From: a virus
Taxonomy: Duplodnaviria; Caudoviricetes
Strand: one strand, 5' to 3'
Length of the DNA stretch: 33,950 bases
IMG/VR virus record: IMGVR_UViG_3300030376_001422
Coordinates: 1-33,950 of that record
Positions 14,868-18,251 of this stretch are shown here, piece after piece. The notes beneath the pieces were generated by a model. It saw only the letters and a list, made by a program, of their open reading frames with translations. It searched no databases and had not been told where the DNA came from. A program made the position numbers and the translations under genes. Within the stretch, counting starts at the first letter, position 1. Each line of letters starts with the position of its first letter.

Positions 14868-16250
14868 CTAGTCATAAACCCAACCACCATGCCAAGCCTT
14901 TCGTCTCTTTTTTGGGTCGGGAGCTTCAAAATTAAACTTCTTGCCAAAGAGAGTAACAGTCTTTTTAGTTTGGCCAACGCCTAGTTTTTGTAGAGACTTA
15001 GGTAGTTTACTTTGTGCTTCTTTAGTTAAACCCCAACCTTTACCACCTACTAATTTATTCTGCTTACCTGCATCTGAATTAGAACTGCTTGCAGGTTTAC
15101 CTTTAGCATTTAAGTAGGACCTAAGTGTTTTATGTCCAGACTTTGTTAACTGGTCTTTAGTTACATTAGCATAGCTCTTACCTTTGTAATTAAATGTTGA
15201 AGGTTTGTTCTTTAAAGAATTGTAATGCTTAAAGGCTTCCTTAAAACTTCCGAATGAAGAACCTGAAGGACCTTTACCTCCTGAACTCTTATCTGCTTTA
15301 GTAGGTGTAGAAGTAGTAGTAGATTTATCCGCATCTCTAAGTCTTTTCCTAGCATCTGATAATTTTTTATCAGACAGCTTCTTCATAGAGCCTCTATCTG
15401 CATCTCGGAATCTACTTGAAGCTGATGGGGATTTAGGTTTGTTTGGATTGTCACCTGCACCACCTCTTCTTGTAGTAACTCTAGCACCAAGTTGAGAACT
15501 AGGAAGTTCTCCTCTAGTGCCTTTATCATCAGAAGGAACTCTACCTGCTAGTCTACCTTTACCAACAGGCTCTTGCTTTCTAACAGCTCCAGTTACATCA
15601 GTAAGTGTTTTAGGTCTTTTGTTTTCCCTAATCCTATCGCCAACCTCATTAATAGCAAGAACAGTTCCTATACCTGCGGCTGTTAATCCTATTCGTTTCA
15701 TTGCCTGAATTGTTGGGTCTACCTTACTTCTATTCACAGACCTACCAACATTCTGTTTAAGTTTAGGAGATTTTAACAACGTAGAACTCTTACCCTTTTT
15801 TACCTTAACCTTAGGGCCTTTCCCCTTTGAAACTACTGCCTTAGGGTCAATCTTAAATCTACTTAAAAGATTGTTTACTTGTTGGGAGCTAACATTCTTA
15901 CCTTGATTAATATTGGAAATAACTTCTCGTTGCTTTTGAGTAAGCTGTGAAGGAGGCTTGTCAAGGTTACTAGCTTTAGCTTTTCTTTGCTTTACTATAT
16001 CCTTAACTTTCTGACCTTGCCCTTTTCCTTTAGGTGCTACATCCTTAACTGCCTTCTTAGTTTTACCTATGTTTTTAACAACACTGGTAGTTAAGTTTTT
16101 TACTTTTGATTTGTTAGTCTTGCTAATGTTCTTAACAATACTTGCTCCTTTTCTAATAGCTTGTTTAGCTAAAAGTTGAGCCGCAGGTGAGCGTGCTACT
16201 TTGTAGACAAGCATACCTATTCTTATTGCTACTATTAATGGTGCCACCAT
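14868..16250 (-). CDS. Highly basic, Lys-rich low-complexity protein, 460 aa
   Basis: K/R/S/G-rich; AAGGAG RBS; SFKEAF...FNYKGKSY motif. Confidence 0.8.
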   Translation of the reverse strand: MVAPLIVAIRIGMLVYKVARSPAAQLLAKQAIRKGASIVKNISKTNKSKVKNLTTSVVKNIGKTKKAVKDVAPKGKGQGQKVKDIVKQRKAKASNLDKPPSQLTQKQREVISNINQGKNVSSQQVNNLLSRFKIDPKAVVSKGKGPKVKVKKGKSSTLLKSPKLKQNVGRSVNRSKVDPTIQAMKRIGLTAAGIGTVLAINEVGDRIRENKRPKTLTDVTGAVRKQEPVGKGRLAGRVPSDDKGTRGELPSSQLGARVTTRRGGAGDNPNKPKSPSASSRFRDADRGSMKKLSDKKLSDARKRLRDADKSTTTSTPTKADKSSGGKGPSGSSFGSFKEAFKHYNSLKNKPSTFNYKGKSYANVTKDQLTKSGHKTLRSYLNAKGKPASSSNSDAGKQNKLVGGKGWGLTKEAQSKLPKSLQKLGVGQTKKTVTLFGKKFNFEAPDPKKRRKAWHGGWVYD

Positions 16251-16422: not shown

Positions 16423-16589
16423 TGAGCTTTTTTCCTCTAAAATTGTTAGTGATAGACCTTCACAGGGAATGGCGGTAACAGTTTTGACCCCCCATACTCC
16501 GTATGTGCGGTTGACTTAGTGAGCTTTTGCTCAGATTACAGCGGAGCTGTAAGTCAGGCAACAAGCTCAGGCTAAGTCGAAGGGGAAGG

Positions 16590-16964
16590 TTAGCTGAGGT
16601 CAATAGACACCTTGACATCAGCCGTATGAAGATGAACTTGCTTGTCAGGACTCTTCAAGCCAACCCTATCAAGGATGTCCTTGCTTGCCTCTAGCTGTAC
16701 GTATTCACTTCTTGCATCACCTGACAAGGAGACTATCTTTTGTACGGCTGACGTAGCATGCATGCTTAAAGAGTTAGCCACAGATTGCAGGAGGTAACTC
16801 TGTACATGTGGTTGCTTCAGAGCCTTACTGGCACTGACTCTACCGCTTTCACCTTCTGCATATCCTGCAATCTGAGAGGCTTCTTTAATCGTGCATGCCT
16901 TTGATACGAGCGTATCCACTAATGCCACCTGCTTTTCTGTCAAACTTCTGTTGTTCTGGTTCAT
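16590..16964 (-). CDS. terS: Terminase small subunit (probable start at 16964, 124 aa)
   Basis: LTEKQ...TIKEASQIAGY HTH, ASKAL..PHV, ASKDILDRVG motifs; GGAGG 7 nt before the ATG at 16964. Confidence 0.85.
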   Translation of the reverse strand: MNQNNRSLTEKQVALVDTLVSKACTIKEASQIAGYAEGESGRVSASKALKQPHVQSYLLQSVANSLSMHATSAVQKIVSLSGDARSEYVQLEASKDILDRVGLKSPDKQVHLHTADVKVSIDLS

Positions 16965-17442
16965 GCTAGCACCTCCAGAATGGACTTTACGCTCGGTCAA
17001 AGAGGCATGTCAAGGTGTTAATTCTACTATCGCCCATAAAGTTGAGTACGGAGACTGTGGAGGTGTCATCTTACCATGAACAACACCTGAATCTCTCGTG
17101 CAGATTCCCATTCCCGACACAGAGCATCAGGTCTGCTACTGTAGCCTTATCTGACCTGCGGTTCTGGAGAGATTCAGCCTCATGGTAGATGACGCTCCAC
17201 CTACCTCTAAACCCCACTCTTTTCCTGAAAGTAGCAAATCAGCTCCACCTCTGCCATGCTGTGGAAGAACAGCATGCAACTTTAGTGCGAAACCCATAAC
17301 AGATGACATCTACCAGTAGTTCGGAAGGTAATTCGACTGTAAGCCCAATGCTCACGAACGAAATTTGACTGCGAGTTCCTCATGTTTTGTGCAAGACTGG
17401 TCACGCTACCTTCCTTCCTTTGCAGTTGTTAAATTGCTCCTC

Positions 17443-17556
17443 ACCATAGCAGGAGCAAAACCATGTCAACAAGAATGACGGCTTCCACTCGCGAGCAAGA
17501 GCGAGCGGACCCTCCGCAATTCTTGTGGACTTGGTTTTCTTTTCTCCTGCTATTGG
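17443..17556. promoter_or_regulatory. Paired sigma70-like elements on the two arms of the hairpin
   Basis: Minus strand TTGACA(17469-64)-15 nt-TATGGT(17448-43); plus strand TGGACT(17526-31)-19 nt-TATTGG(17551-56); both -10 boxes preceded by TGC. Confidence 0.45.
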
Positions 17557-17592
17557 TGCTACACAATTTAACAGCAAAGAAAGGAGGGCATC

Positions 17593-17997
17593 ATGCCCAA
17601 TCTTACAAAAACACTCGAAACTCTTGCAAATTCCGTTCGTGACCCTTGGGGTCGAATCCGAACTGTAGAGTCAATCTGTTATGGATTTCACACTAAACTT
17701 GCGTTCTTCCAAGAACAGCATGACAGAGTTGAATCCGATTTACTTCAGGAAGAAGAGCGTTGCATAGAGGCAGGTGAAGCGTCAATGAGGCTTGAATCTC
17801 TCTTCACTCGCAGGGCAGAGAAGGCAGATACAGTAGCTGACCTGAAGGCTCTTCTAGAGTCGGCAATGGAAATCTACAAGAAAGAGTCAGGTGAGGATTA
17901 TGTCCATGGTAAGAAGAAACCACGCCCAGTCTCTACGAACTCAGACTTTAATGAGTACGCTAGTAGGTTTAACAGACAACCTCTTAGCCCGAAGTAA
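17593..17997 (+). CDS. First early gene, unknown helical protein, 134 aa
   Basis: Strong RBS AAGGAGG; intact frame while its antisense mirror is full of indels. Confidence 0.8.
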   Translation: MPNLTKTLETLANSVRDPWGRIRTVESICYGFHTKLAFFQEQHDRVESDLLQEEERCIEAGEASMRLESLFTRRAEKADTVADLKALLESAMEIYKKESGEDYVHGKKKPRPVSTNSDFNEYASRFNRQPLSPK

Positions 17998-18251
17998 AGT
18001 CAACCAATTCTGGAGGGTGCTAGTCACTCTCCAGAACATCTTTGTCTGCGAGTGGATACGCTCGTAGTCAAAGGTGTACGTCAGCCGTAGGCTGATGTCT
18101 GTGGTATCTATCGAATCACACCTTCCCCTAGCATGAGAGGAGTGAGGGGGGTTAAAATGGAACACCGCCTAAGAACAGGGGTGTTAGAGTATGGCGGTAA
18201 ATAGGCTAGAGTACATAGACCTGAACAACTAAATGATTGGAGTAAAATAAG

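What the first reader, a model, noticed from the sequence alone, without database searches (positions are those of the whole stretch)
17443..17595. Candidate fold-activated (Frpo/ssi-like) promoter: the minus strand could transcribe the gene from single-stranded DNA
Seen: near the apex the minus strand of the left arm reads TTGACA-15 nt-(TGC)TATGGT and the plus strand of the right arm reads TGGACT-19 nt-(TGC)TATTGG. Each is off the 17-nt optimum in duplex DNA, but the two are paired box-to-box in the hairpin. In the core rod I counted by hand about ten A-C/C-A mismatches on the plus strand (G-T wobbles on minus) versus about one G-T on plus. Established: Frpo/ssi elements in conjugative-plasmid leading regions are promoters formed by ssDNA folding. 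Inference: in the folded minus strand the TTGACA arm is non-template and the antisense of the 134-aa gene is template, so RNA polymerase would make the correct mRNA along a quasi-duplex covering the entire gene. This could couple expression to ssDNA exposure (ejection, end resection by the YqaJ exonuclease, rolling circle) or to cruciform extrusion.
Basis: partly seen in the sequence, partly recalled or inferred. Interest (0 to 1): 0.88.

Follow-up and report, generated by a model that had tools for sequence, protein, structure and literature searches.

The report
Phage gene with fold-back mirror promoter
This marine phage and most of its relatives keep a co-evolving, non-coding mirror copy of their first early gene, so one DNA strand is predicted to fold back into a long duplex that likely lets the host RNA polymerase read the gene from single-stranded DNA, a trick known from conjugative plasmids that my searches did not find described for such phages.

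Summary
The promoter boxes, their box-to-box pairing and the wobble bias are all real (26 G·T on minus vs 5 on plus). They lie near the apex of a 1,087-nt imperfect fold-back (16952-18038) between terS and the first early gene of a phage related to pelagiphage Hodr.

The rod is family-wide: 64 of 96 relatives have one, against 0 of 122 control regions. Pairing is maintained: 36 of 40 double changes are compensatory. Short rods cover the leader plus about 60 nt of the gene; all 10 long rods end at its terminator hairpin. In 22 of 52 lineages the -10 'TA' exists only as a bulge in the mirror arm, and terS has its own promoter.

Best reading (0.55): a fold-activated ssDNA promoter and template, Frpo-like in function but not an Frpo family member. 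Not shown: that the folding molecule is DNA, how the strand becomes single, and that the duplex is silent. This window lacks the TA bulge, and both box sets could work in duplex DNA. I did not find this in print.

The parts
16952..17492 (.). Mirror arm: non-coding, frameshifted reverse-complement copy of the leader, ORF and terminator of gene 1; predicted non-template strand when the minus strand folds
17501..18038 (.). Gene-side arm of the rod; the minus strand here is the template of gene 1
17493..17500 (.). Apex loop (8 nt) of the predicted rod
   Evidence: fold
17464..17469 (-). TTGACA -35-like box on the mirror arm, invariant in 9 close copies
17443..17451 (-). TG-C-TATGGT extended -10-like box on the mirror arm, invariant in 9 close copies
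17526..17556 (+). Sense-strand counterparts TGGACT-19-(TGC)TATTGG, a weaker match (1.8 vs 10.7 bits with a recalled E. coli matrix)
17559..17563 (+). 5x5 internal loop (opposite 17437-17441) just 3' of the -10; candidate pre-opened bubble, with predicted start at A17563 or A17565 (inferred)
17582..17587 (+). Shine-Dalgarno AGGAGG of gene 1
17593..17997 (+). Gene 1, 134 aa, predicted helical hairpin; member of an unnamed family found at this position in relatives
18008..18036 (+). Terminator-like hairpin (weak U tract here) at which the rod ends
16984..17013 (-). Separate candidate terS promoter TTGACA-18-TAAAGT; a TTGAC sits at this place in 129 of 130 loci
16590..16976 (-). terS (likely start ATG 16964, GGAGG at 16976-16972, paired in the base of the rod)
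16471..16945 (-). Predicted outer, branched extension: terS segments pair with 18044-18169, making a 1.7-kb fold; present in L003/L005 and partly in L001, without clear compensation
16482..16493 (-). GGGGGGTCAAAA motif after terS (a G5 run lies within 220 nt of the terS stop in 81 of 117 loci); an inverted copy lies at 18146-18157 (+); candidate packaging or end signal (inferred)

Best explanation
The window carries a co-evolving mirror copy of its first early gene, and the template (minus, terS) strand likely folds back on it when single-stranded, which would give the host sigma70 polymerase a promoter and a duplex template for that gene. Shown: the mirror, its family-wide position, its compensatory evolution, its strand bias and its boundaries. 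Inferred: the mirror is the non-template strand and supplies the -35/-10, often with the -11A already unpaired in a bulge. Inferred: transcription starts about 30-42 nt before the ATG, at a second small loop. Inferred: the long paired stretch lets the mRNA be displaced rather than stay as an RNA-DNA hybrid, through the ribosome-loading region (short rods) or to the terminator (long rods). Conversion to duplex would weaken or redirect this promoter. The strand most likely becomes single by 5'-3' resection of a genome end on the terS side, or by strand displacement during replication; neither is shown.
For: Rod in 64 of 96 loci with at least 1.3 kb upstream of terS, 0 of 122 downstream controls; also in cultured phage Hodr. 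Compensation: 36 WC + 2 G·T of 40 double changes against L003; 35 WC + 2 G·T of 47 for L244 vs L245. Template-strand bias: G·T 334:118, G·G 99:35. Apex 85-167 nt before the ATG in 50 lineages. All 10 long rods end 32-65 nt past the stop at a GC-rich hairpin, 7 with a clear U tract; L244/L245 do the same. A hairpin of at least 5 bp starts about 35-45 nt before the ATG on the sense strand in most of the 44 of 50 lineages that have one (control 24 of 50), so the mRNA likely starts there. TA-creating mirror bulge at ATG-56..-44 in 22 of 52 lineages, at most 8 in any other window; 23/51 vs 94/450 bulges, p 3e-4. L244/L245, looked at after the motif was noticed, carry CATAAT or TATGAT as a mirror-only bulge. 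Mirror outscores sense in 33 of 50 lineages vs 17 (p 0.008). terS has its own promoter, mostly 4-58 nt beyond the rod. C(GNA)G triloop hairpins: 13 on the terS strand vs 2.3 expected, 2 vs 1.1 on the other strand; RNA tetraloops not enriched. No conserved minus-strand promoter at the rod's 5' end (5.1 bits vs 9.5 for terS).
Against: No experiment. The mismatch spectrum does not separate DNA from RNA (logL -207.2 DNA, -203.8 RNA; isolated G·A 59 = C·T 56, which fits RNA better). In the wider intergenic census the triloop contrast shrinks to 17 vs 8 of 71 loci, and the early strand has 6 cUUCGg hairpins. This window has no TA bulge and no triloop at the apex, and its sense strand keeps TG-C-TATTGG. 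30 of 52 lineages lack the bulge at that place, and the sense strand scores higher in 17 of 50. The -90..-62 window also favours the mirror (p 0.04). Windows were chosen after viewing alignments and lineages are related. Hodr, L017, L244 and L245 show no wobble bias. 32 of 96 loci have no rod by BLAST, though 4 of those (L034, L065, L077, L079) fold one. Leader-hairpin wobbles are uninformative (G·U 14 vs A·C 11). No sharp genome end is seen, and no relaxase or rolling-circle Rep was found among 44 ORFs scanned against Pfam.
Confidence: 0.55

Rival explanations
1. The folding molecule is a minus-strand RNA (antisense to gene 1, then the mirror): a long hairpin that is processed into regulators, masks antisense, or gates terS translation through the anti-SD hairpin at 18008-18036.
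For: G·U bias; isolated G·A = C·U and U·U > A·A fit RNA; the RNA energy model fits slightly better alone; the terS ribosome site lies in the rod base in this lineage.
Against: No conserved promoter at the rod's 5' end, which lies inside the ORF in short rods; GNRA/UNCG loops not enriched while DNA-type triloops are; terS has its own promoter at the rod's 3' end; boundaries match the plus-strand transcription unit.
Confidence: 0.18
2. The rod is an ssDNA structure mainly for replication or end protection: an ssi-like priming site where the transcript serves as primer, a self-priming 3' fold-back, or a nuclease shield. Gene-1 expression comes from an ordinary duplex promoter.
For: No primase or polymerase among the ORFs scanned; GC skew turns here; Frpo/ssp1 transcripts prime synthesis (10.64898/2026.01.09.698686, passages); mini-hairpins occur at ssDNA priming sites (PMC13037366, passages).
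Against: M13ori priming needs only a small hairpin and no -10/-35 (PMC7430646, passages), so this does not explain coverage to the terminator or the mirror-only -10; the skew also follows gene direction. It is not exclusive of the best reading.
Confidence: 0.15
3. A functionless quasi-palindrome kept in step by templated repair or conversion, with the G·T bias from strand-specific deamination; the boxes are an ordinary leftward promoter.
For: Templated correction can give paired changes, and C>T or A>G on an exposed minus strand gives G·T (established knowledge, recalled); 32 of 96 loci lack a BLAST-detectable rod.
Against: 150 of 190 unpaired positions stay unpaired in L003, and a 3-nt insertion was not copied while its neighbours were compensated; G·G over C·C is not a deamination product; position, boundaries and bulge are conserved across gene-1 proteins mostly under 20% identical; perfect runs in this window never exceed 10 bp vs 20.6 expected.
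Confidence: 0.07

Closest known systems
Frpo / ssi / ssp single-stranded promoters of conjugative plasmid leading regions (PMC9849209, PMC11541004, 10.64898/2026.01.09.698686; passages read)
   Same: Imperfect fold-back upstream of an early gene, -35/-10-like boxes in the stem, template strand is the folding strand.
   Different: No sequence match to plasmids; no relaxase found; tailed dsDNA phage with no known ssDNA entry; the mirror runs 60-500 nt into the coding sequence and co-evolves with it; activity untested.
Phage N4 early hairpin promoters and GNA mini-hairpins (PMC13037366 passages; PMC13434306 listing only)
   Same: A tailed dsDNA phage transcribing early genes from single-stranded templates; C(GNA)G hairpins near the apex in relatives.
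   Different: N4 uses short hairpins and its own virion polymerase of about 3,500 residues; the largest ORF here is 968 aa, and this window has no triloop at the apex.
M13 ori(-) hairpin primed by host RNA polymerase (PMC7430646 passages)
   Same: Host polymerase initiates on folded phage ssDNA.
   Different: M13ori needs no promoter boxes, makes an 18-nt primer, and belongs to an ssDNA phage.
Rod-like RNAs (Obelisks PMC10827157) and cabRNA from terS/terL (PMC10686824); listings and abstract starts only
   Same: About 1-kb rods containing an ORF; structured nucleic acid at terminase genes.
   Different: Here the rod is a fixed part of a DNA phage genome, often covers only the gene's 5' end, and has no Rfam or ribozyme match at gathering score.

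Membership tests
Frpo/ssi single-stranded promoter | Imperfect stem-loop in the single strand that is the template of the downstream gene | tested here: met
   (predicted fold, strand bias)
Frpo/ssi single-stranded promoter | -35 and -10 boxes reconstituted in the stem | tested here: inconclusive
   Clear in this window (10.7 bits) and better on the mirror in 33 of 50 lineages, but mean 4.4 bits and post-hoc windows
Frpo/ssi single-stranded promoter | Sequence similarity to plasmid Frpo/ssi | tested here: not met
   blastn of 17300-17700 against 72,556 plasmids, no match at E 0.01
Frpo/ssi single-stranded promoter | Location in an oriT/relaxase leading region delivered as ssDNA | tested here: not met
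   Podovirus-type genome; no relaxase among 44 ORFs scanned against Pfam
Frpo/ssi single-stranded promoter | Active as ssDNA, inactivated in dsDNA | not testable with these tools
   Needs in vitro transcription
N4-type hairpin promoter | Virion RNA polymerase of about 3,500 aa | tested here: not met
   Longest ORF 968 aa
N4-type hairpin promoter | Short stem with C(GNA)G loop at the promoter | tested here: inconclusive
   Enriched in relatives' rods, absent at this window's apex
Known structured RNA families (Rfam 15) | Covariance-model match at gathering score | tested here: not met
   0 matches in the window
HTVC010P-type pelagiphage trait | Comparable rod between terminase and first early gene in HTVC010P | tested here: not met
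   Only an AT-rich, bias-free self-hit in HTVC010P and none in MEP301

The most novel reading that the evidence does not exclude
This abundant family of tailed dsDNA phages passes one genome end through an obligatory single-stranded stage on entry. The exposed strand folds into a self-contained mini-gene (split promoter, ORF, terminator), so the first phage protein is made only when, and because, the end has been unwound or resected: a DNA-state sensor built from a co-evolving mirror gene.
Probability: 0.27. Interest if true: 0.93.

Novelty: new variant of a known kind. Interest (0 to 1): 0.8.

Why it matters
Fold-activated sigma70 promoters are established for plasmids that enter as ssDNA; tailed dsDNA phages are not expected to need them. 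A large marine phage family (about 900-1,400 stored IMG/VR stretches match its terS patterns) pays to keep up to 600 nt complementary to a fast-evolving gene. That points to an unrecognised single-stranded or fold-back stage in infection. A cultured member with a rod (Hodr, on Pelagibacter HTCC1062) makes it testable. If the RNA rival is right, it is instead an undescribed gene-length dsRNA regulator, which is also notable.

Tried and rejected
Expression: no RNA holder listed, so nothing is known about transcripts. Contigs of 4 runs gave no strand-switch joints and no start or end sites; contigs cannot show them.

Genome end: contig breaks are commoner upstream of terS (59 of 139) than downstream (21 of 139) but scattered, with no shared break point. 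The idea that the fold ends at a G-tract terminus did not hold as a general rule.

DNA vs RNA by mismatch energies: inconclusive. Helix-length cap: strong in this window, Hodr and L082, not significant in most of 23 clusters. Outer 1.7-kb fold: no clear compensation.

Gene-1 function: no Pfam or PHROG family, 2 hits in 1.84 billion representatives, only generic helical-hairpin fold matches. A Gam-like anti-nuclease role (recalled idea) got no support. HTVC010P and MEP301 lack a comparable rod.

Rows dropped: L056 (weak, distant hit); L001/L003 and L084-L089 from the terS surveys (duplicates or differently oriented); L077 from alignment A3; Hodr and ORFs under 100 aa.

Literature searches with no description of this element: HTVC010P + inverted repeat (0 papers); Hodr/Baldr/Pelagibacter; rod-like/structured RNA/terS; single-stranded promoter + bacteriophage + terminase/fold-back (only N4). 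The library lacks most subscription papers, Masai & Arai 1997 was not read, and no supplements were opened.

Full report
Context. The window is a circularly assembled 33.8-kb podovirus-type genome (148-nt end repeat) with terS, terL, portal and capsid on the minus strand and DUF932, a YqaJ exonuclease and AlpA on the plus strand. The closest cultured phage is Pelagibacter phage EXVC031P Hodr (terL 64%, capsid 54%, terS 51%); the window's own host is unknown. The finding lies where early and late genes diverge.

Observation. All four hexamers and both spacers are as stated and pair box to box. They sit near the apex of a 1,087-nt imperfect inverted repeat, 16952-18038 (E 1.7e-145), with 414 of 490 aligned positions Watson-Crick paired. 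The minus strand has 26 G·T against 5 on plus and folds better under both DNA and RNA parameters. The boxes alone would not stand out. Rfam has no match.

Family-wide feature. Using terS as anchor, 233 loci collapsed to 139. Of 96 with at least 1.3 kb upstream, 64 have a rod, against 0 of 122 downstream controls; four BLAST-negative loci still fold one. Hodr has a 694-nt rod, and two MAG contigs have rods of about 1.36 kb. HTVC010P and MEP301 have no comparable rod. The apex lies 85-167 nt before the ATG of the first early gene in 50 lineages. Those genes are very divergent, but 58 of 67 link into one family, a predicted helical hairpin with no named relative.

The pairing is maintained. Against L003 (71% protein identity), 40 pairs changed on both sides: 36 remain Watson-Crick and 2 become G·T, and 150 of 190 unpaired positions stay unpaired. 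L244 vs L245 gives 35 WC + 2 G·T of 47 double changes, with 46 one-sided breaks. Over 23 clusters the terS strand has G·T 334 vs A·C 118 and G·G 99 vs C·C 35; Hodr, L017, L244 and L245 are exceptions without bias. A decaying duplicate or deamination alone does not explain this. Short-patch templated repair cannot be excluded as the way changes arise.

Boundaries. Most short rods end about 55-85 nt inside gene 1. All 10 long rods among the 50 lineages end 32-65 nt past the stop at a GC-rich hairpin: 7 have a clear U tract, while this window, L035 and the truncated L215 are weak. L244/L245 mirror their terminator too. These long rods come from perhaps three gene-1 subtypes, so they are not ten independent events. 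On the other side the rod usually stops 4-58 nt before a separate, conserved terS promoter (TTGAC in 129 of 130 loci, with twin G tracts in 114). In this window that promoter is 17013-16984. So the mirror covers gene 1's transcription unit or its start, and the apex boxes are not needed for terS.

Promoter anatomy. With a recalled E. coli matrix the mirror outscores the sense strand at ATG-60..-34 in 33 of 50 lineages vs 17 (p 0.008). Two other windows show no excess and one (-90..-62) shows a weak one. In 22 of 52 lineages a bulge in the mirror at ATG-56..-44 creates a TA that the sense strand lacks (at most 8 in other windows, stable over three alignment settings). In 19-20 lineages a template-side bulge follows at -43..-31, just before a leader hairpin found in 44 of 50 (control 24 of 50). 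Sigma flips out non-template -11 and -7 bases (PMC7430646, passage), so a bulged TA would be pre-melted (inference). These windows were chosen after seeing alignments, and relatives share ancestry. L244/L245, examined later, carry CATAAT or TATGAT as mirror-only bulges at -33. This window belongs to another subtype: no TA bulge, but invariant mirror boxes and a 5x5 loop with variable sequence 3' of the -10. Its sense copy TG-C-TATTGG may work in duplex DNA, since only 30-43% of promoters in three alphaproteobacteria have -7T (PMC7703639, abstract start in the listing). The mirror box may also fire leftward.

DNA or RNA. Mismatch energetics do not decide, and isolated mismatches look slightly RNA-like. 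C(GNA)G triloop hairpins, much more stable as DNA than as RNA (PMC13037366, passages), number 13 on the terS strand of rods vs 2.3 expected and 2 on the other strand; GNRA/UNCG loops are not enriched. The wider census is weaker (17 vs 8 of 71 loci, with 6 cUUCGg on the early strand), and this window has none at its apex. No conserved promoter could launch a minus-strand RNA at the rod's 5' end. I put DNA at about 0.7.

Mechanism. Most likely the terS strand becomes single, folds, and host sigma70 polymerase initiates on it with the mirror as non-template strand. On bare ssDNA, polymerase makes a short primer (18 nt on M13ori; stalling on an extended hybrid is recalled knowledge), so a long partner strand would be needed to release translatable mRNA. 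That would explain why rods reach past the ribosome site or to the terminator. If a genome end lay on the terS side, 5'-3' resection would expose exactly this strand (geometry, inference). The end could not be mapped. Rivals: an RNA hairpin (0.18), a priming or end-protection structure (0.15), a neutral quasi-palindrome (0.07).

Comparison and verdict. It would work like Frpo/ssp (PMC9849209, PMC11541004, 10.64898/2026.01.09.698686; passages) but fails membership on sequence and context, and it differs in mirroring coding sequence. My searches found no description in tailed phages apart from N4's different system; passages of PMC8477408 and PMC10504331 on HTVC010P-type phages do not mention it. 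Three unchecked notes from this scan report similar gene-length mirrors in other phages; they are leads on generality, not support.

Noticed in passing
window 16471-18169: The predicted fold continues outward and encloses the whole terS ORF with side hairpins (1.7 kb). It is closed by two inverted GGGGGGTYAAAA motifs (16482-16493 on minus, 18146-18157 on plus).
   Followed up: partly
L004-L240, 20-130 nt upstream of terS: Conserved TTGTGCGTTGACA promoter followed by twin G tracts in 114 of 130 loci, and a G5 run after the terS stop in 81 of 117 loci; candidate packaging or terminal-repeat signals flanking terS. This window lacks the upstream tracts.
   Followed up: partly
L002 4372-5065; L244 1553-2924; L245 1568-2924: A second rod style dominated by small bulges with no G·T bias; both strands fold almost equally.
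   Followed up: partly
window 18008-18036 and 16960-16985: The gene-1 terminator hairpin holds an anti-SD that can pair with the terS ribosome site at the rod base, giving an alternative four-way structure.
   Followed up: no
L066, L072, L096 mirror arm near apex: The mirror's -10 overlaps TGTGGATAA, a DnaA-box sequence (label recalled), which the sense arm lacks.
   Followed up: no
window 14868-16250: 460-aa very basic, low-complexity ORF between terS and terL with no Pfam or PHROG match; Hodr has a cluster of small genes here.
   Followed up: no
window 16536-16552, 16496-16508 and 18082-18096: C(GNA)G triloop hairpins with 5-7 bp stems cluster at the outer edges of the fold (two on plus, one on minus).
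   Followed up: partly
L008, L009, L011, L033, L043, L062, L073 upstream of terS: Loci without a detectable rod tend to have longer first genes (180-276 aa); L050 has a 295-aa gene that looks ArdC-like (recalled resemblance, not tested).
   Followed up: no
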